In this document: piece after piece, positions 2,113 through 63,770 of the stretch | Layout of the letters: each line of letters starts with the position of its first letter | How positions within the stretch are numbered: the stretch's first letter is position 1 | Source: Octopus vulgaris | Taxonomy: Eukaryota | DNA: 64,000 nucleotides | Reading direction: 5' to 3' | Assembly: GCA_951406725.2 (NCBI GenBank) | Contig: OX597820.1 | Span: 59,086,001-59,150,000, forward strand | The notes under the pieces: model-generated | Databases searched by the model: none | Told to the model about the DNA's origin: nothing | The model's input: only the letters and a program-made list of their open reading frames with translations | Position numbers and translations under genes: made by a program

Positions 2113-40551
<38,439 letters not shown>

Positions 40552-42478
40552 AGTTGCAAAATCTGTCCTTCAGTTGTAACCAGTTCTACAAATTTATTTT
40601 TGTCTGTTCAATTACTTCATGTTGTTTACTTTAAAAATACAAATGTTATTTAAAATATCAATCTATATCGCATTTTGTTTTTAGCACTTTAAATGCGATT
40701 AAAAATAAAAGAATGAACAGACATTTTATTCTCAAGAGATCTAAAAGACGCTGGATGGCAAATAAGAAGACACTGGTGTGATGGACAGTTAAAGTAAAAC
40801 AGAAATCAGTCATTGAAAATCAAGCAAAGAAAATCTCACATTTGTCACATGTCTTCAGACTATTTACAAGTTTGATACAAGTTTGTTGTTAATAAAAGAT
40901 TCAGTGAATTCTTTCAGTATATCTCATATTTCACATTATTGTTTTACCATCTACATTACCATGTTTGTAAAAGTCAGGCAGGATTAACTGATGCAAATTT
41001 TGTAGTCGGATGCCCTTCCTGTCACCAACCTTTGCTTATTCCAAAGCAAAGTAAATAGTCTTTCACAGGAGATTGCAAACAGCACCACTTGTATGAGAGT
41101 AATATCTTTTAACAATTAATGCTTGATGCCAAAACAAGGAGACTGAAATATTCATAATCATAACTATGCAGACACATGCATAATATACAACAGGCTTCTT
41201 TTCAGTTTCCATCAATCAAATTCACTCACAGGGTTTTTAGCCAGTCCATACAGTGGCTTATAGTAAGACTGCACCTGAAACTACATGGCTGTAGATGTAT
41301 ATGTGTGTATACGTGTGTGTATGTGCTGTGTGTTGTGTATGTTAGTGTATAAGTATGTACATGCATACACATATGAGTATGTGTAAATATATATATATTA
41401 TATATGTATGCATGTAAAAATAAAATATAAAAAAAGAATAAATAGTATAAAATAAAGCAAATTTGAATTTTGTCCCTAAAAAGAGTGTCATATATATGTA
41501 TATGTATGTGTGTGTGTGTATGCATAAATATATATATATATATATATTATATGTATGTATATGTATGTATGTGTGTGTATATGTATGTATGTAGAGATGG
41601 ATGAGCGTATATGTGTGTATACTTTATGATTATACGTATATTTGTATGTGAAGGTGTCTATATGATTGTGTACTTGTATATATGTATAAAGTTATATGTG
41701 CATATATGTATCTAAGACGTATCCATTCACCGTTAGACGGTGGTGAGAGAGACAAACGCACACACACACACATACGTGTGTATGTATATATATAAATGTA
41801 TATGTGTGTATATATACAACCTTCAACAAGGTAACAGTCATGTATACAACTTGAACTGACACATATCATTACATAAACATACGTTCACATATACATACGC
41901 ATGTACACACACAGACACGTTTACACACTCTCCTAATACATGCATAAGTACATAGGTACATACATACATGCGTATAGGCATGCACACATGCATGCCTATA
42001 CACATACACGTACACACATACATACATATGCACATACATACATACATACATACGTACGTACGTACATATATATATCATGAACTAACTGTTACTTTCTCAG
42101 ATGGAGCACGAAGCTTTGTCAGTGAACAGGTTGCGATCTCAAAGCGACGAGAAGTGAAGGAAATGAAAGGAAAATACATAATACTGTAGTGATAAAATTA
42201 AAAATCTATGTTCATTATCACACAAAGTCATTTATGTTTAAAATAAGGTGATCTATAAGGAGAGTCTTTAAAAATTCTCTCTACACACTACTTATATAAA
42301 TACTGTAAAGTCTGTATGCATTTTTAAACAGCCTGTGTTACACTTTAGCAAAATCGTCTAAAACTGTTGATAGAACTCAACAAATAGAGGGGTTTTCTTT
42401 TTTCAGTTCCACACACAAATACTGCTACTGTGGTTAAAAATATACCACTGAACTGTGGCATTAATCTGATTCTGGCAT

Positions 42479-42558
42479 CTAATATTCTGGACTTGGTGGT
42501 TTTGGTTGGCCAAGCATGTAGTCATCGAAAGGCAAAGCTGTTCCTGAACTGATGGAAT
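42479..42558 (-). CDS. MCPH1: MCPH1 terminal coding exon
   Basis: ttccag|AT TCC ATC ... GAA TAT TAG; DSISSGTALPFDDYMLGQPKPPSPEY*; completes the BRCT W-x-x-D-S-I motif. Confidence 0.9.
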
Positions 42559-45500
42559 CTGGAAATAGAGAAGATAGAAAAGAGATATGTCAGTGTACAA
42601 GGATCTTGTGATATTATCATCATCATCATTTAACATCAGTTTTCCATGCTGGTATGGACTGGATGGTTTAACAGGAGCTGGGAAGGCCAGGAACCACACC
42701 AGCTTCCATTGTTTGTTCTGGCATGGTTTCTAAGGCTGGATGTCCTTCCTAATGCCAATCACTTTACAGAATCTACTGGGTGCTTTTTATATGGCAGTAG
42801 CACCAGTATCAATTCTAACTGTGGTGGATGGGTCTTGTTGTGTACAGCAAGGTGCCAGATTTCTCAGTCCTTTGTCATCTCCTTCGTAAGGTTCAGTGAT
42901 GTGAGATCAGCCTTCAGTACTTCATTCCATGATTTTCTGTGTATCAATAAAAAAAATGCTGCTGCTGTTGCTCTTACAATTTACAAACCTAGTTACCATA
43001 CGAAAAGCAAAGTGTACGGCAGCAGAGCAATGGATGAGAGAAAGTCTATAGGAGAGAAAATGACCTCTCTCAGAAAGAAAACTATTGGAATTATAGACAA
43101 CATCCCTTTATGACTTCACCTACTATTTAAACAGAGATAGAAACACAACACCCAGGACCTTTTGCAGGGCCTTGAGAATGATAGAAGCAAACGGAGAAAC
43201 CTTAACCTTTTTAGCATTCAGATTACTCGGAATGCCTTTCAGCATTTAAACTGACCACATCCATCCCAAATATTTTATCTGTTTTATATTCAAACTGGTT
43301 AGATCTGGCTTCTCACACCTACCCAACAATGTCATTCTAAAAACAAACAGTCACATCGTCGAAATATGTGTATGTTGACGTTAGGAAGGGCATCCAGCTG
43401 TAGAAACATTGCCAGATAAGACCGGGTGCAGCCTTCTGGCTTCCCAGATCCCCGGTCGAACCGTCCAACCCATGCTAGCATGGAGAACGGACGTTAAACG
43501 ATGATGATGATGATGATGATGATATATGTATGGAAGTGTGGATGTGTGTATGTTTGTGTGATAGATGAAAATGAATGTCATTGTCATACAATATTCCATG
43601 AAAACATGTCTGGGCCATGGGGAAATATCACCTTGTTTGAAAAAACAAAAGAAATAGCATACCAAATGAAACTTACCAAATATCCAAAGAGGAGTTACAC
43701 TAATCATGGATGGATGATACTCCTCACCAATATAGATACTAGCATTACATATAGTGTTCTTCACCTGTATAATATAAAAAGAAAGGCTGTTAATTTCAGT
43801 GCTATTTCAATAAATGTATTGTACATGAATTGATTATATAAATATGTGTAAGTGCAGTGTGCTTAACAACCTTATCATTAAACAAAGGCTTTTGAATAAA
43901 AGATTTAAATTATACTTGTAACTCTTTTTTCCCAAAGACACAGAGGTCTGATGCAGGCTCCTGTCTGGCCAGCTCCTGCCAGTATGGAAGGAGGATGTTA
44001 AATAATAACAACGGTGAGTGGAGGTGCAATGGCCCAGTGGTTAGGGCAGTGGGCTTGCGGTCATAAGTACACGGTTTCAATTCCCAGACCGGGCATTGTG
44101 AGTGTTTATTGAGCAAAAACACCTAAGCTCCACGAGGCTCCAGCAGGGTTGGGGTGGTGAACCCCACTGTACTCTTTCAGCACAACTTTCTCTCACTCTT
44201 TCTTCCTACTTCTGCCACAAAGCAGAGGAACTACAATGTGGTAAACTCTCAGACCCTAGTCTAGATATTGAATCCTCTGTACCCCAGGATGGTTCAGCTC
44301 TCCACCTGTTAAAAGCTACTGTTTACGGAATGACAACATAGCTTTCGCACCCGTGCAACTGCCAGTCTATCGCGTGTGGTGGGTGGATCTTCAAGTTGCC
44401 ACACGCATTCTTAGTAGCTTAGAGTAGGCTCGAATTGGAGATTATTCTTTGTGGCTAATGATGTGGGTCCTGATTGGAAGAAGAAGAAGAAGACAGCAAT
44501 TGTGATGACAACGATGATGAGTATAATCATACATCTTCCCTACAGTAAGACACTTGTTTCTATCTCTCTATCATACTTTTAATCTCTCGTTACCTGGCAC
44601 AAAGCCAAGCCACTTCCCTCAGTACTACACCCCTTAGTTGAGTGGGCCTTGTCTTGTAAGTTATTTGATGACTTCACTGGTGCAGCTGCCATGTAAAAAG
44701 TGCCCAGTACACTCTGTAAAGTGGTTGGCATTAAGAAGAGCATCCAGCTGTAAAAACCAAAGTAGACACTGGAGCTCGATAATCCTCTTGCTCACCAGCT
44801 CCTGTTGAACTGTTCAATTCATGCCAGCAAGGAAAACAGATGTTAAATGATGATGATATACACTGATATAGATATACATCTAAGAGTATAAAGATACAAT
44901 CATCCTCCATATCATGGAAACATTGTGCTCTTAAAAAACTTGCTGTAATGTGGCATTTAATATGAAACAAATTTTACCAAAGATTTCCATATTAGATGGA
45001 AATCGATGAACATGGAATTCAATGGGAAAATACACCTTATGCTATGAAATTCCATGTTTCATTACAAAAGTATGTGAATGTGATCCTTCTGTAATGCAAG
45101 GGATGTCTGTATATGAATACAGATATAGGTACATATATGCAGATATATGCATCACTGGATGTACAATGTCAGTGTGCATGTATGACAGAGTATAAATATC
45201 TTGAGAGAAAAGTTGGGCATAAGAAGCCTCAGATGTGGTGTGCAAGAGAGACAACTGTGCTGGTATGGGAATGTGATGTGTATGGATGAGGACAGCTGTG
45301 TAAAAAAAGTGCCGATTTCTACCTGTGGACGGAACTTGTAGAAGAGGTAGATACAAGAAGATGTGAGATGAGGTGGTGAAGTATGATCTTCGAACGTTGG
45401 GTCTCACAGAGGCAATGACAAGTGATCGAGACCTTTAAAAATTTGCTGTGCTACAGAAGACTCATCAAGCCAAGTGAAAATTATAGTCGTGACAGTGATG

Positions 45501-47443
45501 CTGACACGTAAAAGGTACCCATGCTGGTGACACACAGAAGGCACTCACTACACTCTTGGAGTGGTTGGCATTAGGAAGGACATCCAGCTGTAGAAACCAA
45601 ACCAAATCAGACTGGAAACTGGAACAGTTCTCCAGTTTACTAGCTCCAGTCAAACTGTCTAACCCATGCCAACATGGAAAATAGATGGTAAATGATGATG
45701 ATGATGATGATGATATGAATATATGTCAACCAGTTCAACACACTGTTTCCATTGTTAAGAATGCAGTAGACATCACATGACTTCTAATAACTTACTTTTC
45801 CTCCACACTGCTGCAATAACTGAATCAGATCCTTCTTTGGTGGAGCCTTAACAGCAGAGACATAGATACTCCCACACTTATCGAACACTTTAGGGCCAGA
45901 GTTAAGCTGCTTCTGTTCACGATATAACTGTAAATAATAACAATGCAAAAAGATAACCTAGGTAGAATAAAAACCAGTGCATCAACACATGCACGCACAA
46001 AACATTCATAAATGTTACTAATATATACATGCATACATACATACATACACATATATGTATATATATATTAGTAAGTTAAACAGAATTACTATAGCACAAG
46101 AGTGGTAGTCACTCATTTCTGGTTTCACAATAAAACATTGTTTTCTCTCTCTCTCTCTCCCTCTCCACACACACATGGAAATTATACACGATGTGTGTAA
46201 CAAACAAATATTTAATCACATGTTGAGAATATACCCCATGGATAAATCACAGGAACTTTAGCAGTTAAAAATGAGAATTGTCTGATTTGTTTCGTCTTAT
46301 GACTCATCAAGGATTACTAACTTTATTTCTCAACTACTTGAGTTAAGAAAAATATATCTTCTTACAAAGTACGTAAACAACCAGAGTGAGAGAAATTTGC
46401 ATACAGGTACAAGGTTTATGACTGAGATTTAAAAACAAAAGTACCAACACAGTATGGTTTTATGTAAATATTATACACATGGAAATCAGATGAAAATATA
46501 TTTTTATAACCATATCACTGCTAGACCAATCATGTTTACTAAACATGCCATGTATAACTTCTTGACACAGCATGACTGAATGGTTAGGATGTTCATTTCA
46601 CAACCATAAGATCCAAAGTTCAACCCCAGTGCATGGCATCTTAGTCAAGGTCTTTTACCATAGCCCCAGACTGACCCAAGCATTGTAAATGACACTGGGT
46701 AGACAGAAACTGTGGGAAAGCCAGAGGTACGCTAATTTTAAAGTTCAGCCTTTTTACACTGCATCATACTGATTCTGCCCAAGAATTACATTAAAGGACC
46801 ATGCAGTGCCTGAGGAGTACTCAGTCACTTGCACACAAATTCAATGAGCAGGTAATTAATTTGATTAACCCTTTAGCATTTAAACCAGCCATATCCAGCC
46901 AAAAGTATTCTGCTTGTTTTATGTTCAAACTGGCCGTATCTGGTCTCTTACACCAACCCTACAATATCGTTTTAAAAATTAACAGCTACCTCATCAAAAT
47001 CTCATAGCTACAAGATAATGCATGATTAGTTCAAAACAACATGGATAAAAAAGCATTAATTTTAGCAGAATGACGTGAACACTAAAGGGTTAAACAACTA
47101 AATACTCATTGCAGAAACAAAGATCCATTTACTTTTTAAATGACTTCTGTATACATATTTATCCAAAACAACATATTTAACCAAATCCTTAAATTACATT
47201 AGCTTTAGATATTTACTTTTCTTTTATTTTACTTTTTACTTGTTTCAGTCATGTGACTGTGGCCATGCTGGAGCACCGCCTTTAGTCGAGCAAATCGACC
47301 CCAGAACTTATTCTTTGTAAGCCTAGTACTTATTCTATCAGTCTCTTTTGCCGAACCGCTAAGTTACAGGGACGTAAACACACCAGCATCAGTTGTCAAG
47401 CGATGTTGGAGGGACAAATGCAGACACACGAACATATACACAC

Positions 47444-47476
<33 letters not shown>

Positions 47477-50400
47477 CATATATACGACGGGTTTCTTTCA
47501 GTTTCCGTCTACCAAATCCACTCACAAGGCTTTGGTCGGCCCGAGGCTATAGTAGAAGACATTTGCCCAAGGTGCCACGCAGAGGGACTGAACCCGGAAC
47601 CATGTGGTTGGTAAACAAGCTCCTTACCACACAGCCACTCCTACGCCTATGTAAATTTTTATTAAACCCTTCCAAACAACCATCCAGAACAAAAGAAAAA
47701 TAGGAGAGACAAAGGCAGAAAGAGTATAGGAAGAGTAATGTCAGAATGTCAGAAAGGATAACTCTATGTTTACTGGTAAGAGAGAGGGTAAGTGATGTGT
47801 TTCTGTATAAATATTAACAATAACAACAATTTCTTAAATGGATATGAAGTCTCTAGCAAGTAGAGTTGAAAGTTTTGGTGAAAGACAAACACAACGCTAG
47901 ATCACTAAATCTTAGCAGCATAACCTTACCTGGGCCACAGGATAGCTAGCAACCAACTCAAATTTATTTTCATCCAACCAACAGCCAGCCTCCATTGATG
48001 CTGACACCTGCAAGGACAAAACTCATATTTACTTCTATGACATCAAAACATAATAACATCACAGCATCAGACAGTACAGAGCTAGCTACAATAGGTGTTT
48101 CATGATATCCAATTCTCTGTGCGGTACTTAATTACTGCCACAGTATCTAGTCTACTATATGGTTCCATAACTTTCATATAGCATCTAGTTCACAATAAAC
48201 TGCCTAAACTTTGAAATGGTATCTTGTTCATTCTATGGTACATTTTTCACTACATGCTGTCTAAACCTCCATATGGCACCTAATTCATCATATGCTACTA
48301 AGACTTCCACATGGTACCGAGTTCATATGGTACACCACATGCTACCCAGTGCACCATAGTTTAGCATATAGTATGCCTAGTTCAAATTATGGTACCTAAT
48401 CCACTATATGGTATCTGACTGGATGCTAGTTATATAGCATCTAGGTACCTAGTTGACTATATAATATCTAGTACCTATATATATATATAGTCCAATAAAT
48501 AAGTAGTAGTATGAAACAGTAGAATTAGTTAACCCTTTAGCATTTAAACCAGCCATATCTAGTCCAAATATTCTATTTGTTTTATGCTTAAGCTAGCCTG
48601 ATCTGACCTCTCACAGCCACCCTACAAAATCATTCTAAAAATAAACAACCACACCATCAAAACCTCAAATCTATGAGATAATGCATAATTAATTTTAAAA
48701 AAACGTGAATGAAAAAAAATAACATCTGACAAAGTAATTTGAATTCTAAATGTTTAAAGAATGAAATCTTGACTTACCCATTCTTTACTGACAAGCCAGC
48801 ATCCCTGAGAAAGAGCAAAGAGCACGTTGAGTGTACGCCTAGGCATACCACAGATTACATGTGTCGTGGACTTCTTCACGTTGTCACTGATTACGCATTC
48901 ACCCAGGGTTTTGGCTACAGATTTCACCATTTCTTGATCTCTAGAAGTACACCAAGTCATAGAAATATGAATTTTTAAACAGAGAAAAAAACATCAGAAA
49001 CATTAATTTTTTTTTTTAAATGAATATCTGAATGAAGAAAATTTGGAACTAAAATAGAATCTAAAATAAAAAAAAATATTTAATGTCACAGACTGTGACC
49101 ATGCTGGTGTTCCAACTTTAAAAGTTTTGATTAGTGAAACAAGCTGACCAAAAAGAACATGCAAGATCCATTTTGTGAGAGATGCCTAACCAAACATCAC
49201 CATTATCATTTAACATCTGCTTTCCATGCTGATATGAATTCGATGGTTTGCTAGGAGTTGACCAGCTGAAGGTCTGTTCAGGCTCCCTGTCTGTTTTGGT
49301 ATGGTTTCTACAGCTGGATGCTCTTCCTGACGCCAAACATAAACTTCAACAGTGCTGAAAGAGGTATCATGCTGCCACAGGTATACAAATGATCAAAGTC
49401 CAACCATACAAAACAACCCAGTCAAAAAAAATTTCTCAACACAGGGGAGAATAAAAAAAAACCATTTGTAGAGTATCATATTTGGCAGAGGTACTCATCA
49501 GATGTGTACAAGAACATAACAGTGTACTTAGAATATGGGAAAGAGTGTCATACACTTTCAGAGAATCATGGAATGGTAAAGTCAGTACCCAAGCCGGAAT
49601 TGCACTGTAGTCACAAAGAAGCTGACATCTGGATACGTCGTCATGAAGCATCTTCATCTGCCAAAACCATCATCATCCACATCAGTTCCACAGGCAAAAT
49701 TATTAAGAAGTTCATTTCACAATCATGAGGCTTTATTTTGATTACACAGGGTTGCACCTCAGTAAACATTACTGTTTATAGCCACAGATTGACCTATAAC
49801 TTGTGATTGAAACTAGGCAGACAGAAACTGATGAACTGTACCTGTAATTCACACAGACATGCTAATTATGCTAAGGTTACAAGTATCTGTAGTTTACTCT
49901 GCCACTTATATGCTAATCCAGTGAGGTTTAATAGTTTAGTTGATCAAACAATGAACACAACTGGAAATTCTGACCAAGGTCGATTTTTTTTTGGGGGGGG
50001 GGGTTATAAAGAGAATGGATACTAATGTGCTCATTATTAGCAAGGGATGTGCACAGAAGAGGTGCCATAAACTTGACATCAAGTCCCTTTAATGTCAGCA
50101 TGGCTTTGGTGTTAATTTGTCCTTGGTTTTGATTCAATGTACTCACCAGATGTGATTTTATAAATGGATTCTTTGAGAAAGGAAAGAACAAAACCTTCAA
50201 ATTAGTAATCAAGCATGAATGGTACATACATGTTTTTCAAAACGTGTATGTAACATGTATATTATGCATTCCACCTGACAACTTGGTCCCTTGTCAGAAG
50301 CAATTGTATGTCGTACCATATGTATGATGAGAAGAAAACATTACATATTAGTGTCACCTGGTATGACATATTCCAACATGGTATACATAAAGAAGAGTCA

Positions 50401-53400
50401 CTTCCTCCAAACAAAGAACTCATAATGCATGCTAATTATCAAGTAGGTGTATTTTGCTACAATTTAGAGCAAATGTCAGAAGCTTCTTCCCAAATGCAAT
50501 TTGGTTGTTGAATGAAACTAAAAATCCCATAAGATGAAAAGTATTCCTTTACTAGACAAAAAAAACCCCCACAAAATTTGTAAAGAAATGTTAATATAGA
50601 AATGGTATACTAGGTGTTTTGACCAGAAGAGAATTAATGCATTCGAGCTTTGGTGTTGGAGAAGACTTTTACGGATTCCATGGACAGCGAGGCTCACCAA
50701 TGGAGAAGTTCTTAAGCAGATCAGGCCGAAAATGTCGCTAGAAGCTAGGATCACCAAGCACAGATTGGCATATTTCGGTCATATTATGTGGAGAAAATCC
50801 CTGGAGAAGGACATCATGCTCGGAATGGTCAGTGGCAAGAGAGGAAGAGGCCGACCAAGAACCCGCTGGCTTGACACCATCAAGAGTGATACCGGAATGG
50901 AGATAGCCAATCTGAAAGAAGCGGCCCAGGATAGAACTGACTGGAGGATACTGATCAAACGAGTAACCGAGAGTTGACTTCGACTGAGCGAATAGATAGT
51001 TAGATAGCGGATAGATAGATACTAGGTGTACCATCCATTAACAAGGGGTTTCATTAACTATACATTAAAAAAAAACTCTATTTTGCATAATAATAAATAG
51101 TTGATGTACCATTGGTTAATACATATTTTCGTCAACTACATGCTACAAAAATCAGTGAGCATCAACTGTATTTGGGGAGACTGAAAGTTTTCATTTGGGG
51201 TGTGTATACACAAACTAGTCCATGACAATTTTAGGTTATCTACCACCTGTTACACAAAAATGTGAGATAGATTATATAAATGGTACATGGCCTATGACAA
51301 GTCAATTAGCAATGACAGTTGAGGTGTTGACATTCATAGTGTTCCTACTATTGCTAAAGTTAGGGGGTGACAATACTGAGATGAAGGATGCTACTGTGGA
51401 GTTTAGTAAATCCTTAAATTACCAAAAATTTCACGCTACCTCTAATGAGGACAATACCATTAACATAAAGTTTACTTACGAGGTAGACAAACTGGTCATC
51501 ACCAAATATTTCTTGACAGGTCGAAGGTTCCTTGTAATCAGAGACACAGTAATAGGGAAGTCAAGTTTCCTTCGCTTGACTCTGGGCCCAAGAGTTTGGT
51601 CATCTGAGATAATAGTCTCTGACTGGTCCAAGCAAGAGGTAGATGTCTGTTGCAACTCTCTGATTTGTTTCTCTTTCTCAATTTCCTTCTGTTGTGACTC
51701 CATCTCCCAAGCTTTACTCTCTTGAGAATCATCAAAACTTCCCGCACTCTTCCATGACAACAAGGAAGATAGGTTGTTTGAGCTTTCTGTGTTTCCATTT
51801 ACCAATACTTCCTCCTGCTTTACAGTGAAACTAGATATGTTAGTACCTACATCATCAGTTCTATAAGATGGAATGTTAGCATTTGATAAACTAGTTGTTT
51901 TAGATGAGGCATGCTCTTCATCACTAATACCAAGTATATGCATTGTCTCTCTGTGAGCAAATTTCCGTCTAGAAATCCTCTGAGATCTTTTGTAGCTAGT
52001 CAAACTTGTGTCACAGTCACTTGATAGTAATGGACTAGTCAGATTTTCAATAGGACTGTTACTGAAAATATCGGCTTCCTTGAAGACAGTACTGCCCACA
52101 TTCACAGTACCATCCTCAGGAACATCACTAATATCTGGAGAGGAATTTTCAGCAGATTTCACATCTAATGATGAAGACATAATGGAACAGGAAATCGATG
52201 ACTTCATTGGTGAACCTGGACTGACATTTACTTTGGCATTTTGATCCAGTTGATCGACTTCACTTACTGCTTTAGGATTCTGTTTTGTGTCATTTAAAAC
52301 GTCGAGTTGATTTGGCAGACAAATAAGATTGGATGACTTGGTGGGAACAAAAGACATTTGATTATTGATAGAGAGATAAGATGCTGAAGCCAAACTGTCC
52401 TGTTGAGTGGAGCCATCAGAATTATGTAGCTTAAAACACTCAGTCTTCAACATTTCTTTGTCTTCAGAAGGGCTGCTGTTCTCTACATCAGAACCATCAT
52501 CTACAAAGAATAAAACACAGTTTATTAGAAATTATTATTAAGGTGGCGAGCTGGCTGAATTGTTAGCATGCTGGATGAAATGCTTAGCAGTATTTTACCC
52601 ATTACTATGTTCTGAGTTCAAATTCCACTAAGGTCGACATTGCCTTTCATATTTTCAGGGTCGGTAAATTAAGTACCAGTGAAACACTGGGGTTGATGTA
52701 ATCAACCTATCCTCTCCCCCAAAATTTGAAATAATTATTATTAATTATTAATTATTATTATTATTATTATTAAGAGTGGTGAGCTGGCAGAATCGTTAGC
52801 ATACTGGGCAAAATGCTAAGTAACATTTCGTCCATCTTTACATTCTGAGTTCAAATTTTACCAAGGTCAACTTTGCCTTTCATGCTTTCAGGGCTGATGA
52901 AATAAGTACCAGTCAAGCACTGTGGTCGATGTAATTGACTTACCCAACCCCTAAAATTTCAGGCCTTGTGCCTTTAGTAGAAAGGATTATTATTATTATT
53001 GTCATTAGTATCTTCTTTCAATTCTATTTCCATTTCTAGCTGAGTGTCTTCCTGACACCTAGGGCAGAGAAACGTACTGTATACACAGGTAGGCCATTAA
53101 AACAAACACACAAATAATTTTCAGTTCCTTTTTTTCGCCGCCGCCGCCACCACCACAACCACCACCATCACCTTCATCATCATCATCATCATCACCATCA
53201 CCACCAGCAACAGCAGCAGTAGTAGTAGTAGTAGTAGTAGTAGCAGCAGCAGCTTTATTATTATTAATATTATTGTTATTATTATTAAGGAAGTGAGCAG
53301 GCAGAATTGATAGAATGCTGAACAAAATGTTTTGTGGCATTTCTTCCAGCTTTATGTTCTAAATTCAAATTCTCCCAAGTGCAAAGGTTGACTTGACCTT

Positions 53401-55853
53401 CCATTCTTTCAGGGTCTATAAAACAAGTACCAGTTGGATACTGAGGTTGATGCAATAGACTGAACAATATCCATAACTATATGTACGTCCCAGGATTTTG
53501 TTTAAGACCAAAGTCAAGGTAACCAATGTGCTGACCTAAGGAATCAGACAGGAGAGATAATAATACTGGAAGAATATAGAGAAATAGCAGAACTCAAGCC
53601 CACACCTACTCCAAGAGAACCAAATGGGGATGTCACTAGAGTTCCCTATGCTGGTTATTTCGGAGAAATTTCCTTATTACTTTTATTTCACACAGTGTCA
53701 GCAGATATAGGTGGTCAGCAAAAGTAGAAAAACTAATTGTTTACATTCGTGGCACACCTAACCACTTCAAAGCTTACTGCACCACAGAAGATGAGAGCTG
53801 AATGCCACCTTCTGTGACCTTGGCAGCAGCAATCACACCAGTGATTATTGCAGCAACTGCAACCACATCATCATTATAAGCATTCAAATCATTTAATGTC
53901 CGTTTTCTATACTGGCATGGGTTAGATGATTTGACAGGAGCTGGCAAGCCACAAGAATGCACCAGGCTTCACTGTCTGCTTTGGCATTGTTTCTACAGCT
54001 GGATGCCCTTCTTAATGCCACTAATAAAAAACAACAGCAATAACTTCTACTACAGCCACCTTTAAAGAAGAGAACATCAAGTTACTTAAGATGATGTGAA
54101 CCTTATATCAGCAAAAACACACATACACATATAAGATGATGTTAGACATAATAATGGGTTTATGTTTTATCTTTCACTTGCTTCAGTCATTAGACTGTGG
54201 CCATGCTGGAGCACAGCCTTGAAGAATTTCTTAACTAAATAAATCAACACCAACACTTGGTTTTTTTAAGCATGGTACTTATTCTATGGTTATCTTTTTG
54301 CCAAACTGCTAAGTTATGAGGATGTAAACAAACCAACGCTGGTTGTCAAGTGATGGTGGTTGGGGGGGGGGGGGACAAACACAATGACACATATACACAC
54401 ATGTATGACTAACTTCTTTTAATTTGTCTACCAAATCCACTCACAAGGCCCTAGACTGTAGAAGAAGACCCTTTCCCAAGGTGCCATGCAGTGGGACTGA
54501 ACCCAGAACCATGTGGTTGGGAAGCAAACTTTTTAAATCACATCCATTTCCATTTACCAAATTTCACACACAAAGTATTGGTCAACATTAGGTTACATTT
54601 GAAGACACATGCACAGGCTGCTATGCAGATGCAGTAGTATTGAACAAAGAACTATCTGGGTGCATATTATGTGTATCATGTGAAATATAATGTACAGTAC
54701 AAAAACCAGTTTTTTTATAGAACACAATCCCCAATGATCCCACATATACAGGAGTCACTGCCTATATAGGACACAATCTTTTACATAAAAGCAGCATCAC
54801 TAACATATGATGAAGCATCCATGTCTACAATAAATCATCGTCATCGTCATTTAACGTCCGTTTTCCATGCTGGTATGGGTTGGACAGTTTGATTGGTGTT
54901 GGACAGGCAGAGAGCTGCACCAGGCTCCAATTATGTGTTTTGGTTTGGTTTCTACAGATGGATGTCCTTTCTAACACCAACTATTTTACAGAGTGTATTG
55001 GGTACTTTTTACTTGGCACTGACACCAGTGCTATTTATGAGGCATGATGAACAGAACAGTATTCTCAGCATATAGAAAAACAAATTCACACAGGGAGCAG
55101 TGTTTCACATGAAGAAGAACAGTACAAAGAAGGAGATGTACCTAGTTAAAGGGACTGTATTATACTTACTGAAGACCAGTTTCTGGAAAGAACGATGGCA
55201 AATAGGGGTGTCATCTGGAAGAGAGAAAAAAAAGACAATAGAAAGATTATCTTAATTTACAACAATATCAACACTGAAGACAGGCTTAAAGGATATATAC
55301 ACACACATACAGACACTTAAACACATGCACACACATACAGATACATACATACATTTCATTTCTTAGAATAAGTGTTGGGTACCAATAGACCACCCTCACC
55401 TAACTATATCTAACAGAACCACCTAATAAATGTGCATACACATAAACTAACTCTCAAATCTTCATGCATACACATATATACATACACATGACCCACCCTC
55501 CATATCATCATCATCATCGTTTAATGCCTGTTTTCCATGCTAGGATGGGTTGGATGGTTCGACCGGGGTCTGGGAAGCCAGGATGCTGCACCAGGCTCCA
55601 GTCTGATCAGGCAGTGTTTCTACAGCTGGATGCCCTTCCTAATGCCAACCACTCCGTGAGTGTAGTGGGTGCTTTACACGTGCCACTGACACAGGTGCCA
55701 GGGGAGGCTGGAAACAGCCACAATCAGCAGGTGATTTTTATGTGCCACCGGCACGGAAGCCAGTCAAGGCGGTGCCAGCATCGCCACGTTCGGATGGTGC
55801 TTTTTACGTTCCACTGGCACAGGTATCACAACTACAATTTCCATTTGATTTTG

Positions 55854-55893
<40 letters not shown>

Positions 55894-58800
55894 AGAGAGA
55901 GAGAGAGAGAGAGAGCAAGTGAGAAATGGGACTTAAAACAAAAATATTCAAGTAGAAACTAGAAATAAATTGAGCAAACATGCTCCATTGGATATATGAG
56001 GTTAGTGTGCATGAATAACAGAACAGAAATAAACTAAGAAAAAACCTGAATATTAGAGGAATTGGATGTTGTATGCAAAAGAGATGACTGTTCTGTTACA
56101 AATGAGTGATGCCTATGAAAAATGACAATTGGGTAAAACACCAAGAGCTCAAAGTGAATGTAATCTTTGGTAAAAACTGATCTCAAGAAACTGAAACTCA
56201 CAACAGAAATGACAGAACCATGATGAATGGTGCTAGAGAAGACCCACCCATTGGTGCACGCATGGCCAAACTGTTATTAAAATAGTCATCGTGGCGATGG
56301 AGACCAGAATGCATAATATCTACTTGTTAATAATATACCATGCTTAGTGTTCTGGTTTTCTCTAAAACGCTAATGAAGAATGATTGAGAGAGCTGTGCAA
56401 GCCACATTCATAGATAATGTCAGTAACAAGTTTAGGGAGGAATTTAACATGCATGTAGGTGTTCATAGGTGTTGGTTTTCAGTTTCATCATATTTATAAT
56501 AGCTTAATAGCTCTCCTGTTGATAAACAGTAATAAACGAAAATGGAAATTGTAGCTGTGATACCAGTGCCGGTGGCATGTAAGAGAACCATCCGAACATG
56601 GCCGTTGCCAGCGCCGCCCCGACTGGCCTCCATGCCGGTGGCACGTAAAACACCATCCGATCGTGGCCGTTTGCCAGCCTCGTCTGGCACCTGTGCAGGT
56701 GGCACATAAAAAGCACCCACTACACTCTCGGAGAGGTTGGCGTTAGGAAGGGCATCCAGCTGTAGAAACACTGCCAGATCAGACTGGGCCTGGCGCAGCC
56801 TTCTGGCTTCCCAGACCCCAGTTGAACCGTCCAACCCATGCTAGCATGGAAAACGGACGTTAAACGATGATGATGATGACATAAACACAAATATATAGAC
56901 ATACAGTTACAAAACACACATAGAGCAGGAAACAACATAAACTTGAAAACAGTCTGACTAATTAAACTAGAAACAGAAGTTGCTGTCACAAAACAGCTTT
57001 TGTATGCAGTTACAGTTCACGGAAATATCAGTTAGAGACATGGCAAGAATGGAATAATAATAAAGTTATATGAGAAACACAAACACATACCTTGGCTTCG
57101 GTTGTATTCAAGGAGTCTTTCCTTCATGCTCGGGGGTGTAGTTAAACGGGGTACATTTTGTTTGAACTGGAAAATAAACATCATTTTCAATTAACGATCC
57201 TTCTTAATCTTTTGAACAAACAATAACATCAAGGGAGCCACTATGTGGTTATATGATATGCTAAAAATAGCACCCAAATATCACTCAAATCCTATCCATC
57301 TTTAAAAAACATAGAATAATGCAGTCCTAGATACACTGTGTGTAAGAAACAAGAACAATTTGGATCTATTCCATCTCAATCACAGATTTTTAATTAATTT
57401 TTTGTAACTAAACAGTTTGAAACTTTGAATACTAGTAGAATTTCTCACATAGAACAGTTTACTCTGAACGTTTTTGACAAAATTTCCTATTCTAGAAGTT
57501 ATTTCATGTTAAAGTTGTCATATTTAGGTAATTTCAACCAATCTATGTGTGTTTTGTAACTGTATGTGAGAAGTTCTATCAGTATTCGAAGTTTCAAACA
57601 GTTTAGTTAAAAAAACTAATCAAAAAATCTGTGATTGAGATGGAATAGATCCAACGATTCAAAGCTAAATACCCTTGACCCTTGGTCTGATATACTGGAA
57701 CTGACTTCGGACTAAATAACATCTAAAATCATTGAATCGTACAATGACAAACACCATTTTAATATATTTATCTAGTTATTTATTGAGACTTAGTCCATAC
57801 ATCTAACAACTTCCACAGTGAACAAGGGACACAAATCTGCTTACTCCAATGTAATTAACTTATCCCCTCCCCCTACAAAAAGTAGTGTCCTCTATTACTT
57901 TACGCTTCAATGGTTAATGGATGGAAAGCTATTTATCAAGTTCTCAAAGTAATTGTTTTAACAAATTGGTAATGAAAATTTTATGTAAAATAGCAAAAAA
58001 AAAAAAAAAATCACAAATTTATGGTAAACAGCCTGTCAAATATATGAATGTGTGTGTTTGCATTTGTCGCCTGCTACTGCTTGACATCTAGTGTTGGTTT
58101 TTGTTACATCCCCATAAAAGAACCAATAGAAAAAGTATCAGCCTTAAAAACAAGTATGGGGTCGATTTGTTTAACTAAACCCTTCAAAGCAGTGCCCTAG
58201 AATGGCCATAGTCCAATGACAGCAACAAGTAAAAGATATTGTATACAACACAAACAAGCTGGCGAAATGCTGAGCGGTATTTCGTCTGCCGCTACGTTCT
58301 GAGTTCAAATTCCGTCGAGGTCGGCTTGGTCTTTCATCCTTTCAGGATCGATTAAATAAATACCAGTTATGCACTGGGATCGATGTAATTGACTTAATCC
58401 GTTTGTCTGTCCTTGTTTAGCCCCTTGTGGGCAATAAAGAAATAACAAACTTTTATTTTGTCTTTCTGAGTAGAAGAGAATACAGTTGGTTATACAGGCA
58501 TTTGTTCTTGCCTGATGGTTTATTTTATCAGCCCCCAAAAGACCTAAAGCAATGCCGACCCCATTCTGAGTTTAAGATTGCAACTAAACATGATCTACTG
58601 ATATGACTATTTCCTACTCCAGCAGAAATGACAGAGGTCACTCAAACAAAACACATAAACATGTAAAGTAGTTACACCTATAACCTTCAGGCCTCACAAG
58701 TAGTCATACCTATAACCTTTGGGCTTCATAGAGGCAATACAAATAACCAAGACCCTTGGCAATATGCTGTGCTTGAGAAGACCCATCAAGCCCAATACAA

Positions 58801-61587
58801 TCGTAGTCATGGCAGATACTGGTGTCACATAACTGGCACCCATGCCAGTGGAACATAAAAGCACCCAGCACACAGTAAAGTGGTTGGCATTAGGAAGGGC
58901 ATCCAGCCATAGGAACAATGCCAAATCAGACTGGAGTCTGGGGCAGCCCCTCAGCTTACCAGCCCTGATCAAACCGTCCAACCCATGCCAGCATGGACAA
59001 CAGACATTAAATGATGATGATGATGATGATGATGATAATCACTGAGGAACAGAAATGATCAAAACAAGCATGAAATAAGAAAACAGAAAATAGAGCAAAA
59101 AGAAATACTTATACTTACATCTGAGACAGGCGTGAAATAAACATCACTCAGACTAGAATTTTGTTGCTCATTTGTTTTATGAGAACGCTTCCTTCGACGA
59201 CGGCATCGCTGGGAACTGTCTTCAAACTCCTCATTCAAGTTCTTGGGCTGCATGGATCGAAACTTCTGTAAAATGTATATATACATATAAATATATTTGC
59301 TTGCATGCATGGGTGGGTAAATACAAACACACACACACAAGAGCATGCAAAAAAGATGTGTGAATGTGGTACATTTCAATTTTATGAATTTTTCATCAAA
59401 CAAAAAGAAAAATAGGTTTGTGTGGGAAGATATAAGTTAATGAAGATAAACTGTGGGAATGATTTTGGAAAGTAACAGAAAGTAAGGAAGGGAGGACAAG
59501 CAGGAAAGAAGGAATATAGAAGAGGGAGAAGAGGAAACTTCACGGAATGGATTTTTCTGTCTAAAATTCTAACAGATTTTATTTGAAAAATATATCTGTG
59601 TATAGAAGACCACATGGACTTCTCAGTATAGTCAGACTTGTAAAAAACAAGTCCAACATTTTTTAATGCTTGCATGGAAAAAGAACATTAAAACAATGAT
59701 GATTTTCTATGGCTGGATGGCTTTCTTGCCAATCCTCAAGTGCTTCCAAGCAAGGCAAATATTTCATGGCCAGACATGTTTTTGGAGAACTCTGGAAATG
59801 AATGACACTGCTTGCATGATAGTGACACTCATTTACAGCTATCATGTAAGGCCAAAACAAAGAGACAAAACATGCACATAAGTGTATATACTTACACATA
59901 AGTGTATAACATGCACATACAGTAGGATTCTTTCAGTTTCTGTCTGCAAAATCCACTCACAAGGCTTTTGTTGACCCAGGTCTAATGTAAAAAAGCCCTC
60001 ACCCAAGTTGCCAACTTATTAAGCATAGCCATACCTGTATCTATACATATATATAAATATTTAATGTCCCTTTTACTGTAGTGACAGAGATTGGATGTTT
60101 TGACATGGTTTCTACAGCTGGACTCCCTCCCTAACACCAACCACCTTACAGAGTGTACTACTGGAAGATTTTTTTGTGGCACCAACTTTAGGGAAGCCAC
60201 CAAGTACTCAAAAGATAAGACCCTTCACGTGAGAGGTGTATAGTACTGAGGGTTGTGAATGTATGATAGAGGAACAGGAATGAGTGCCTTGTTGAAGAAA
60301 TAAATACACAGCTTCCCCAGTTGGAGAGAGAGAGAGACAGACAGACAGCAGACAGAGACAGATAGAGAGAGGCAGGTGGGGTACATATCCTCAAGGTACA
60401 AAGTGAATAAAAGAAAGAGTTTAGGGATAGAGAAACAAAAAAAAGTGAGTAGGCAAGTAAGTGCATTAGAGTATATGAAAAGAATGTGATAGAAGATTAG
60501 AAATGGGCAGTTTGGGGGAAGGAAATACGAGTGGGTCAGGGTGGCAGAAGAGATGATAAAGGACAGTAGTAGGGATACAATGTGAAGTGTAGGGAGATAG
60601 ATGGTATCATTTACAGCATTTGAGTAAGTAGTGCCACAGTTAGAAGATTGAAGGGATGAGTATAAGACGGAGGGAGGTTTGACAGGACCCCAGTTTTGCT
60701 GAGATGGACAAAGCAGTTTACTGACCACTGACAACCACACTCCTACTCCCAATTATATCTGAGTGAAGCAAAAGTAAAAAGGGCAGTAATAGCCAATGAG
60801 AAGTTCTAGTTTGGAAATGAAAACAGAATTGAAAACCAAAACAACACAACCCACAAAAATATGCATAGTTACCTTGGCTTGTTTCTTGGGAAATATACTA
60901 ACAATTTCTGCTTCCAATATATTACGTGGTGTACTGACAAGGAATGTCTCTTCATCTGCATGCTGTAGGCTTCTTTTGCAACTAAAGCAAAGAAACAATG
61001 CATTAAAAACAGTGAAAGCAAACAAAAATTTACAAGTAGAATTTCATTAGGACCTCATATCACTGCATATAACTATGATTATCATTGTTGTGGTTTAGTC
61101 AAAGACATTCAAGCCATAACAATCCTGTCTTTTTCCAGAGTGACATGTCCCTGAGACCACATTGTAGATGGTATTATTTTCTAAGATGGTTAGGTATGAT
61201 TTAAAAGACTCAGCTGTTTTTTTTTCTAGCAAGTCAAGTGACCATACAGATATTCCCTCAGGTCAAAGCATCATGGTCACACAAGTGAGGTTGTTCATTT
61301 CCAGTCTTCCATGAAAAACATATCTGGTTATGGGATTGGAAACAGGTGAGGGTTGGTGACAGGAAGGTTCCAGTCTGATCTGGCAGTGTTTCTACAGCTG
61401 GATGCCCTTCCTAACGCCAACCACTCCAAGAGTGTAGTGGGTGCTTTTTATGTGCCACCGGCACAGGAGCCAGTCAGATGGGCCTGGCATCGATCACGTT
61501 TGGATGGTGCTTTTTACATGCCACCAGCACAGGAGCCAGTCTAGGGTCACTGGTATCAGCCAGGTTCAAATGATGCTTTTTATGTCC

Positions 61588-62944: not shown

Positions 62945-63034
62945 CTGCAACAAAAAAGAATAGAAAATATGGTGAAAGATAATGTGTATACATACACACA
63001 AACACACATAGAGCATATTGTGTTTATTAATGGT

Positions 63035-63770
63035 GTAGTTAACAGTTGTCGCAATGAGTAGTTATAACTGTTATGGCTAACAGGTACTATTGTGCTGTTT
63101 ACCTTTGTAGTTTACAGGTGTCACTGTGCTGTTTATAACTGTTGTAGTTAACAGGTGTAACTATGCTGTTTATAAGTGCTGTAGTTAACAGGTGTTACTG
63201 CGCTGTTTATAGCTGCAGTAGTTAACAGGTGTCACTGTGCTGTTTATAAGTGCTGTAGTTAACAGGTATTACTGCGCTGTTTATAACTGCAGTAGTTAAC
63301 AGGTGTAACTGTGCTGTTTATAACTGCAGTAGTTAACAGGTGTCACTGTGCTGTTTATAACTGCAGTAGTTAACAGGTATTACTGCGCTGTTTATAACTG
63401 CAGTAGTTAACAGGTGTAACTATGCTGTTTATAACTGCAGTAGTTAACAGGTGTCACTGTGCTGTTTATAAGTGCTGTAGTTAACAGGTGTTACTGCACT
63501 GTTTATAACTGCAGTAGTTAACAGGTGTCACTGTGCTGTTTATAAGTGCTGTAGTTAACAGGTATTACTGCGCTGTTTATAACTGCAGTAGTTAACAGGT
63601 GTAACTATGCTGTTTATAACTGCAGTAGTTAACAGGTGTAACTGTGCTGTTTATAAGTGCTGTAGTTAACAGGTGTTACTGCACTGTTTATAACTGCTGT
63701 AGTTAACAGGTGTCACTGTGCTGTTTATAACTGCTGTAGTTAACAGGTGTCACTAAAGCAGTTAACAGGT
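63035..63770. repeat. 37-bp minisatellite, about 20 copies
   Basis: Unit gtagttaacaggtgtcactgtgctgtttataactgca; period confirmed by starts at 63181 and 63218. Confidence 0.95.

What the first reader, a model, noticed from the sequence alone, without database searches (positions are those of the whole stretch)
42479..42493. MCPH1 ends in S-P-E-Y-COOH, a built-in mimic of the gamma-H2AX tail that its own BRCT2-3 binds
Seen in sequence: after BRCT3 the terminal exon encodes a Pro-rich linker GQPKPP followed by SPEY-stop. Established: MCPH1 tandem BRCTs bind pS-x-x-(Y/F)-COOH peptides such as H2AX pSQEY and Cdc27. The pocket motifs LVMTS and RTLN are intact here, and as I recall human MCPH1 lacks such a tail. 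Inference: proline-directed (CDK/MAPK) phosphorylation of this SP would create a ligand in cis or in trans. That could give cell-cycle-gated autoinhibition or oligomerisation, or recruit other BRCT proteins such as MDC1.
Basis: partly seen in the sequence, partly recalled or inferred. Interest (0 to 1): 0.75.

Follow-up and report, generated by a model that had tools for sequence, protein, structure and literature searches.

The report
Ancient gamma-H2AX-like tail on MCPH1
The octopus microcephaly protein MCPH1 ends in Ser-Pro-Glu-Tyr, a tail shared with coral, hydra, annelid, mollusc, beetle and amphioxus MCPH1 but missing in the vertebrates sampled; once phosphorylated (inferred) it likely acts as a built-in copy of the DNA-damage histone mark that MCPH1's own BRCT pair reads.

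Summary
The window holds Octopus MCPH1 on the minus strand. Its last exon (42558-42479) encodes ...GQPKPP-SPEY-stop, and RNA contigs from two studies splice into it. Of 123 MCPH1 homologues with a full BRCT2-3, 26 end in S-P-x-[FY]-COOH, always 9-15 residues after the last BRCT3 tyrosine. Named carriers are Hydra, Acropora, Owenia, chiton, snail, clam, octopus, Tribolium, amphioxus and Amoebidium; the beetle Agrilus has S-Q-E-F, the H2A.X motif itself. The vertebrate-like clade (0 of 36), hagfish, a tunicate, echinoderms and hemichordates lack it. So it is probably an ancestral animal feature that was lost several times, not a cephalopod novelty. The spacing is that of tandem-BRCT phospho-ligands. 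An acidic residue at +2 (20 of 26) and free F/Y exchange fit an MCPH1/MDC1-type pocket better than human BRCA1. Arg at -3 (19 of 26) points to DYRK-type more than CDK/MAPK kinases. Phosphorylation and binding are untested, and the short linker may favour binding in trans over cis. I found no report of this tail in the library searched.

The parts
42479..42493 (-). S-P-E-Y-stop: terminal tandem-BRCT-ligand-like motif (Ser at -4 from the end, aromatic residue with a free carboxylate)
   Evidence: same motif ends 26 of 123 homologues
42494..42511 (-). GQPKPP linker; Lys at -3 from the Ser, where 19 of 26 tail-bearing homologues have Arg
   Evidence: identical in P0002 and P0003
42479..42558 (-). 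terminal coding exon: end of BRCT3 plus tail
   Evidence: AG acceptor; spliced contigs in X2 and X9
42106..42478 (-). 3' UTR, as far as covered by a contig of run X9
   Evidence: record 23 covers 42106-42558
43677..43764 (-). BRCT3 exon holding the conserved Trp (human W815 counterpart)
45796..45927 (-). inter-BRCT linker and BRCT3 start, with the Pro that aligns to BRCA1 M1775 in the +3 pocket
   Evidence: RNA contigs
47930..48007 (-). BRCT2 end exon
48778..48940 (-). BRCT2 exon with R-R-T-L-N (48840-48826): counterpart of human R693 and of BRCA1 E1698-R1699-T1700-L1701-K1702
   Evidence: RNA contigs
51480..52500 (-). large central exon ending in LVMTS (51505-51491), the beta1 phosphate-binding motif
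55168..60983 (-). four small exons of the N-terminal half (about 60983-60873, 59346-59119, 57175-57092, 55215-55168; tblastn limits, splice sites not refined)
62740..62944 (-). BRCT1 exon; residues 1-58 of the P0007 model have no exon match in the window and probably lie beyond its end

Best explanation
The terminal S-P-E-Y is a conserved, ancient motif of MCPH1 that likely becomes, once its serine is phosphorylated, a ligand for MCPH1's own tandem BRCT2-3 pocket, competing with gamma-H2AX. Shown: the exon, the free C-terminus, conservation of S, P and a terminal F/Y across several phyla, a fixed distance from BRCT3, and an intact pocket. Inferred steps: (1) a proline-directed CMGC kinase that favours a basic residue at -3 (DYRK-type) phosphorylates the Ser. 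(2) pS-P-E-[FY]-COO- docks as gamma-H2AX does: phosphate on the beta1 Thr/Ser and the T-L-N motif, carboxylate on the R693-equivalent Arg, Glu beside the preceding Arg, aromatic ring in the BRCT2-BRCT3 cleft. (3) Because the linker is short, docking is more likely into a second MCPH1 molecule (dimer or chain) than into the same molecule. Either way the pocket would be gated, so the kinase would set how much MCPH1 is free to read gamma-H2AX or Cdc27. Vertebrates and several other lineages lost the tail and kept the pocket.
For: 26 of 123 full BRCT2-3 homologues end in S-P-x-[FY], against an internal rate of 3.5e-4. Carriers have a median pairwise BRCT2-3 identity of 43% and include Hydra, Acropora, Owenia, Liolophura, Littorina, Mya, Octopus, Tribolium, Branchiostoma and Amoebidium. 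A tree clade holding all named molluscs and Owenia is 18 of 18 tail-bearing (SH-aLRT 86). Agrilus has S-Q-E-F at the same place, the motif of mussel H2A.X (PMC3256202). The distance from the last BRCT3 Tyr to the Ser is 9-15 residues in all 26, while the central region spans 314-975 residues in the 18 where it could be measured. Pocket Thr and Arg are invariant in 125 of 125 rows. The residue before the Arg is basic in 26 of 26 carriers, where BRCA1 has E1698, and E1698 disfavours acidic +2 residues (PMC4728184); 20 of 26 tails are acidic at +2. Human BRCT2-3 directs self-oligomerisation (PMC8774270). AlphaFold2 gives the last 7 octopus residues a mean pLDDT of 80, and the Atlas structure search superposes residues 576-772, tail included, on one other predicted microcephalin-like model, whereas the vertebrate-type models align only to 764. 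These last two show an ordered tail in predicted models, not where it sits.
Against: No phosphorylation or binding datum exists for any of these tails. The pocket is as well conserved in tail-less homologues (basic residue before the Arg in 94 of 99), so it needs no tail to explain it, and the same pocket features would suit MDC1, 53BP1 or PTIP as readers. Pro at +1 is the hallmark of BRCA1 ligands (PMC4728184), and whether MCPH1 tolerates it was not checked. Model residues up to K191 follow the ordinary C-terminal path of BRCA1, MDC1 and TopBP1, leaving three residues to S194; from my recollection of the fold, not from measured coordinates, this is too short for canonical cis binding unless the linker peels back. 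In a second model with a longer linker (P0166) the last five residues scored only 71 against 68 for the linker, which is no clear sign of docking. The tail is dispensable in many lineages (97 of 123 rows lack it).
Confidence: 0.5

Rival explanations
1. The phospho-tail is a docking site for another gamma-H2AX-type reader (MDC1, 53BP1 or PTIP). MCPH1 bound to gamma-H2AX would present a second gamma-H2AX-like end and recruit that protein.
For: These readers also bind pS-x-E-Y with a free carboxylate (PMC4688034), and MDC1 with a tandem BRCT is found from sponges to mammals (PMC11014961). Binding in trans avoids the reach problem.
Against: It does not explain why the motif stays 9-15 residues from BRCT3 in all 26 carriers. 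An MCPH1-type pocket in the same molecule or oligomer would compete at high local concentration (inference).
Confidence: 0.2
2. The tail is an Abraxas-like pS-P-x-F-COOH ligand that recruits BRCA1 to MCPH1-bound chromatin in invertebrates.
For: Pro at +1 in 26 of 26 and Phe at +3 in 19 of 26. Abraxas binds BRCA1 by a C-terminal pSPTF with a carboxylate-R1699 salt bridge (PMC4747905). One cnidarian-clade row ends in S-P-T-F (P0057).
Against: Only 3 of 26 tails have both a non-acidic +2 and Phe +3; the octopus has Glu and Tyr. Human BRCA1 E1698 disfavours acidic +2 (PMC4728184). Invertebrate BRCA1 pockets were not examined and may differ.
Confidence: 0.15
3. The tail does not act through a BRCT pocket. 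It packs on BRCT3 as a structural cap, or is a phospho-site read by another module (Pin1-type WW domain, Polo box, a C-degron receptor).
For: Predicted models order the tail on the domain without any phosphate. Ser sits at -1 in 11 of 26, giving an S-S-P Polo-box-like context (the consensus is recalled).
Against: The invariant features are exactly Ser at -4, Pro at -3 and F/Y as the last residue, the tandem-BRCT signature. The octopus lacks the -1 Ser. Tail-less homologues fold without a cap.
Confidence: 0.12
4. A neutral read-through extension that resembles the H2AX tail by chance.
For: Many homologues carry unrelated short extensions: 19 of 45 extended C-termini lack S-P-x-[FY].
Against: The same motif appears at the same distance in cnidarians, annelids, molluscs, a beetle and amphioxus; the internal rate is 3.5e-4.
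Confidence: 0.03

Closest known systems
Human MCPH1 BRCT2-3 with gamma-H2AX (PDB 3SZM, 3SHV) and with Cdc27 (3T1N)
   Same: Same protein and fold (TM 0.87; Z 26), same pocket residues; the ligand class is pS-x-x-aromatic-COOH.
   Different: In humans the ligands are other proteins and MCPH1 ends at the edge of BRCT3. Here the protein carries a ligand-like motif at its own end, with Pro in place of Gln at +1.
Abraxas C-terminal pSPTF bound by BRCA1 (PMC4747905)
   Same: C-terminal pS-P-x-aromatic motif with a free carboxylate; often a second Ser/Thr just upstream.
   Different: Abraxas has no BRCT of its own. The MCPH1 tails are mostly acidic at +2 and may end in Tyr, which human BRCA1 disfavours at +2 (PMC4728184) and, by recall, at +3.
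Phospho-self-ligand systems: MDC1 FHA-pT4 dimer, Chk2 FHA-pT68 dimer, yeast Rad9 SCD-BRCT oligomer, Src SH2-pY tail
   Same: A protein carries both a phospho-reader and its own phospho-ligand, giving a kinase-gated dimer, oligomer or latch.
   Different: None uses a C-terminal carboxylate-ending histone-mark mimic placed a few residues after a tandem BRCT.
H2A.X C-terminal SQ[ED][FY] motif (PMC3256202, PMC11014961)
   Same: Ser at -4, Glu at +2, F or Y last; Agrilus MCPH1 has the motif exactly.
   Different: S-P in 26 rows is not an ATM/ATR site, so a different kinase would write it.

Membership tests
MCPH1 / microcephalin | N-terminal BRCT1, long central region, C-terminal tandem BRCT2-3 | tested here: met
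   Pfam on P0007; exon map
MCPH1 / microcephalin | Human MCPH1 is the best match by sequence and fold, above BRCA1, BARD1 and MDC1 | tested here: met
   E 1.7e-30 against 2.7e-10 for BARD1; Foldseek and VIA ranks 1-3
Phospho-binding tandem BRCT | beta1 Ser/Thr motif, Arg-Thr-x-Lys/Asn at the start of alpha2, BRCT3 Trp | tested here: met
   LVMTS, R-RTLN and Trp align with human residues; R693H and W815R are loss-of-function in human (PMC5539989)
gamma-H2AX-type tandem-BRCT ligand | Ser at -4 and Tyr/Phe as the last residue with a free carboxylate | tested here: met
   stop codon after Tyr; spliced contigs
gamma-H2AX-type tandem-BRCT ligand | S-Q site for ATM/ATR | tested here: not met
   S-P in octopus and 26 rows; S-Q only in Agrilus P0150. 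It may work like gamma-H2AX but is not a PIKK site.
gamma-H2AX-type tandem-BRCT ligand | Serine is phosphorylated in vivo and the peptide binds a tandem BRCT | not testable with these tools
   no phosphoproteome or binding data available
BRCA1 pSPxF ligand (Abraxas, BACH1, CtIP) | Pro at +1 | tested here: met
   26 of 26
BRCA1 pSPxF ligand (Abraxas, BACH1, CtIP) | Phe at +3 and a non-acidic +2 | tested here: not met
   octopus has Glu and Tyr; 3 of 26 tails meet both (rule from PMC4728184, human BRCA1 only)
DYRK-type kinase site | Arg at -3 and Pro at +1 | tested here: inconclusive
   Arg in 19 of 26, Lys in the 3 octopus-clade rows; the paper also notes a preference for hydrophobic +2/+3 and loose specificity (PMC3677093)
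Cis autoinhibitory phospho-tail (Src-like) | Linker long enough for the phospho-residue to reach its own pocket in the canonical direction | tested here: inconclusive
   pLDDT only, no coordinates returned; linker start follows the generic C-terminal path

The most novel reading that the evidence does not exclude
Ancestral animal MCPH1 carried its own gamma-H2AX mimic: a non-histone, non-ATM copy of the damage mark, written by a DYRK-type kinase and read by MCPH1's BRCT2-3. It gates or polymerises MCPH1 at chromatin. Vertebrates, where all the mechanistic work has been done, lost this control, and one beetle lineage rewired it to an S-Q-E-F ATM-type site.
Probability: 0.4. Interest if true: 0.85.

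Novelty: new variant of a known kind. Interest (0 to 1): 0.72.

Why it matters
MCPH1 has been studied almost only in vertebrates and flies, and the vertebrate protein lacks this tail. If the tail is a self-ligand, it is a built-in switch on a gamma-H2AX reader, kept since at least the cnidarian-bilaterian split and lost on the way to vertebrates. It would give a concrete mechanism for MCPH1 self-association and tie a proline-directed kinase to the DNA-damage reader. It is directly testable with four-residue peptides and a 190-residue domain. Even under the rival readings it names a previously unnoticed conserved docking motif in an ancient DNA-damage protein.

Tried and rejected
Complex prediction with two copies of octopus BRCT2-3 plus tail gave no answer (scores 0.02 and 0.01; the alignment was not used and the chains carry no phosphate); it is not evidence either way. 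No whole genome is held for this window, so octopus H2A.X, BRCA1, MDC1 and Cdc27 C-termini could not be read. The third homologue search looked only at proteins of 2593-5000 residues because it took the alignment width as the query length, and found nothing. The run search listed no holder on record as RNA; X1 and X10 showed no listed piece over the last exon, which says nothing about expression. The careful tree did not finish; the quick tree is used and deep branches are weak. Rejected: a cephalopod-specific origin; an alternative terminal exon (narrow scan); PDZ class I and 14-3-3 mode III readings (Ser is at -4, one place too far; consensus recalled); a Polo-box core (Ser at -1 in only 11 of 26, absent in octopus); a full CDK site (no basic +3). 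The primary structure papers (Singh 2012 JBC and PNAS) are not held. Two look-ups of earlier findings returned nothing.

Full report
Observation. The minus strand at 42493-42479 reads S-P-E-Y-stop, after G-Q-P-K-P-P, in an exon that opens with a pyrimidine tract and AG at 42558. The gene is MCPH1. An in-frame BRCT2 exon finds Octopus sinensis, O. bimaculoides and hemichordate microcephalins, and tblastn maps residues 59-772 of P0007 (O. vulgaris CAI9725748.1) onto eleven exons in the window. The last six, all with AG acceptors and the five inner ones with GT donors, give 519 residues with no mismatch to P0007. Human MCPH1 is the best PDB match by sequence (E 1.7e-30) and by fold. LVMTS, R-RTLN and the BRCT3 Trp align with the human residues; the human constructs end at ...ENYLLSQ.

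The exon is used. Of 4 runs laid, X2 (study P2) and X9 (study P3) each hold one contig whose pieces lie on 48940-48776, 45927-45794 and 42558 downward, with 0 other letters. The gaps between the pieces in the contig (76 and 86 letters) match the two small exons between them, whose own pieces were not listed because the table is cut. The tool only guesses that these runs are RNA, but the contigs skip the introns. X1 and X10 show no listed piece there.

Conservation. P0003, an unnamed Logan protein that groups with the octopus rows (support 100) and is 61-63% identical in BRCT2-3, ends in the same ten residues (probability about 0.007 at the background identity). A profile search of 1.84 billion representatives returned 410 proteins at E below 1e-30, of which only the best 150 are given, so the sample leans toward the seed alignment. 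Of 168 proteins held, 163 matched the BRCT2-3 profile and 134 spanned it. I dropped 9 near-duplicates (125 rows in the tree) and 2 rows without the Trp anchor, leaving 123. Of these, 26 end in S-P-x-[FY]: all among the 45 with an extended end, none among the 78 short ones. The same 4-mer occurs at 36 of 103,135 internal positions. The rows are related, so 26 is not a count of independent events, but carriers share a median of only 43% identity in BRCT2-3.

Who has it. I named 20 of the 147 new representatives, chosen by me to span the tree (3 of the 20 stayed unnamed). Carriers: Hydra (SPEF), the Acropora cluster (SPSY), Owenia (SPEF), Liolophura (SPEF), Littorina (SPEY), Mya (SPVY), Tribolium (SPAF), Branchiostoma (SPEF) and an Amoebidium transcript (SPEF; at most 46% identical to any other row, so not a copy of a sampled animal, but a single record). 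Agrilus ends in S-Q-E-F, the C-terminal motif of mussel H2A.X (PMC3256202). Non-carriers: Patiria, Diadema, Ptychodera, Glandiceps, Styela, Myxine, Centruroides, Ceutorhynchus, Henosepilachna, the Capitella model and the pipefish Doryrhamphus. In the quick tree, built without the tail columns, a clade with all named molluscs and Owenia is 18 of 18 carriers, and the vertebrate-like clade is 0 of 36. One gain at or before the cnidarian-bilaterian split with several losses is simpler than repeated gain of the same motif at the same distance. This is inferred from known animal relationships, not from this tree, whose deep branches are weak; some absences may be gene-model errors.

What the motif looks like. 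Ser at -4 and Pro at -3 define the set. The +2 residue is Glu in 19 and Asp in 1; the last residue is Phe in 19 and Tyr in 7. Three places before the Ser, 19 have Arg and the three octopus-clade rows have Lys. The Arg is kept in 7 rows that have no Ser/Thr at -1, so it belongs to the terminal Ser. Arg at -3 with Pro at +1 is the classical DYRK consensus, although that paper also shows loose specificity (PMC3677093). The site lacks the basic +3 of a full CDK site, and Pro at -2 occurs in only 4 of 26 (CDK and MAPK consensus recalled). From the last BRCT3 Tyr to the Ser there are 9-15 residues in all 26, while the central region varies from 314 to 975 residues in the 18 measurable rows.

Which pocket. 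Ser at -4 with a terminal aromatic carboxylate is how gamma-H2AX binds 53BP1 and MDC1, and MCPH1 and PTIP read the same mark (PMC4688034); Abraxas binds BRCA1 the same way (PMC4747905). BRCA1 ligands usually have Pro at +1, which favours BRCA1, but E1698 disfavours an acidic +2 (PMC4728184), and only 3 of 26 tails have both a non-acidic +2 and Phe. In MCPH1 the residue aligned to E1698 is Arg or Lys in 26 of 26 carriers, and the one aligned to M1775 is Pro in 26 of 26; by recall these are MDC1-like states that accept Glu at +2 and Tyr at +3. So the tail fits an MCPH1/MDC1-type pocket. Against over-reading this: tail-less rows keep the same residues (94 of 99 basic, 87 of 99 Pro), so the match does not single out MCPH1 over MDC1, 53BP1 or PTIP, and invertebrate BRCA1 was not examined.

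Cis or trans. AlphaFold2 on the last 197 residues (90-row alignment) gave mean pLDDT 95.5, with 92 for residues 181-190 and 80 for the last seven. The Atlas structure search superposes 195 residues over 576-772 on one other predicted microcephalin-like model, while vertebrate-type models stop at 764. Both suggest an ordered tail, but no coordinates were returned. A second model with a 15-step linker (P0166) gave 68 for the linker and 71 for the last five residues: no fall-off at the end, but no clear rise. VIA-align lays model residues up to K191 on BRCA1 1859, MDC1 2085 and TopBP1 1491, the ordinary exit path on the outer repeat, three residues short of the Ser. From my recollection of the fold this is about one repeat's width from the phosphate site on BRCT2, so canonical cis binding would be strained for the shortest tails, the octopus one among them. 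I therefore lean to binding in trans, which fits the reported self-oligomerisation of human BRCT2-3 (PMC8774270). This is inference.

Mechanism and odds. Shown: exon, free C-terminus, deep conservation, fixed spacing, intact pocket. Inferred: phosphorylation, kinase class, binding, partner and effect. I put about 0.85 on the tail being a tandem-BRCT phospho-ligand: 0.5 MCPH1 itself, 0.2 MDC1/53BP1/PTIP, 0.15 BRCA1. A non-BRCT role gets 0.12 and chance 0.03.

Novelty. Seven library searches bear on it; none listed a paper on an MCPH1 C-terminal S-P-x-F/Y tail, and the whole-word search for MCPH1 with SPEF, SPEY or SPxF terms returned 4 papers, none on this by title and abstract start. For most hits I saw only the listing. 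I read passages of PMC10598736, PMC12635110, PMC8774270, PMC3256202, PMC3677093, PMC11014961, PMC4688034, PMC5539989, PMC4154303, PMC10386641 and PMC4747905, and parts 1-2 of 4 of PMC4728184, which hold its main text. No supplements were opened. The MCPH1 structure papers (Shao 2012, Singh 2012 twice) were seen only as reference-list entries, and their alignments or supplements may show the invertebrate tail; subscription journals are not covered.

Noticed in passing
P0150, P0164, P0157, P0167, P0149 (beetle-containing clade): Tails of similar length vary within one insect clade: SQEF (Agrilus), SPAF (Tribolium), SFAV (Ceutorhynchus), SPFV (Henosepilachna), SGAV (unnamed). This looks like a motif caught in rewiring or decay.
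   Followed up: partly
P0110 (Amoebidium parasiticum, EukProt): An MCPH1-like protein with three BRCT domains, the SPEF tail and a weak N-terminal UBZ-type zinc-finger hit (PF18279, E 8.7e-4, under the cut-off). If not a contaminant, MCPH1 and the tail predate animals.
   Followed up: partly
P0001 (XP_029638881.2): The O. sinensis model is labelled 'breast cancer type 1 susceptibility protein homolog' and lacks BRCT1, but it is MCPH1, nearly identical to the window's gene.
   Followed up: yes
P0011, P0012, P0015, P0016, P0019 (cluster of P0003): 316-317-residue products that end just after LVMTS, at the end of the large exon. They may be unspliced contigs or a short isoform without BRCT2-3, as described for fly and human MCPH1 (PMC4154303).
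   Followed up: no
window 63021-63754: 37-bp minisatellite, 19.9 copies, 85% matches, just upstream of the BRCT1 exon.
   Followed up: no
window 36835-37411 (+), 20608-20970 (+), 29049-29483 (-): Broken mariner/Mos1-type transposase remnants: PF01359 and PF17906 hits for the first two, no Pfam hit for the third, which resembles them by eye.
   Followed up: partly
window 50600-50977 (+): 125-residue open frame inside an MCPH1 intron that resembles the end of a LINE reverse-transcriptase protein (recalled); no Pfam hit.
   Followed up: no
window 42478-40730 (-): No AATAAA or ATTAAA within 1.7 kb after the stop codon; contigs cover the 3' UTR only to 42284 and 42106.
   Followed up: no
window intronic repeats 43400-48700: Contigs laid on the intronic repeats differ mostly by A>G, T>C, G>A and C>T. 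These are probably other repeat copies; A-to-I editing cannot be told apart without matched DNA.
   Followed up: no
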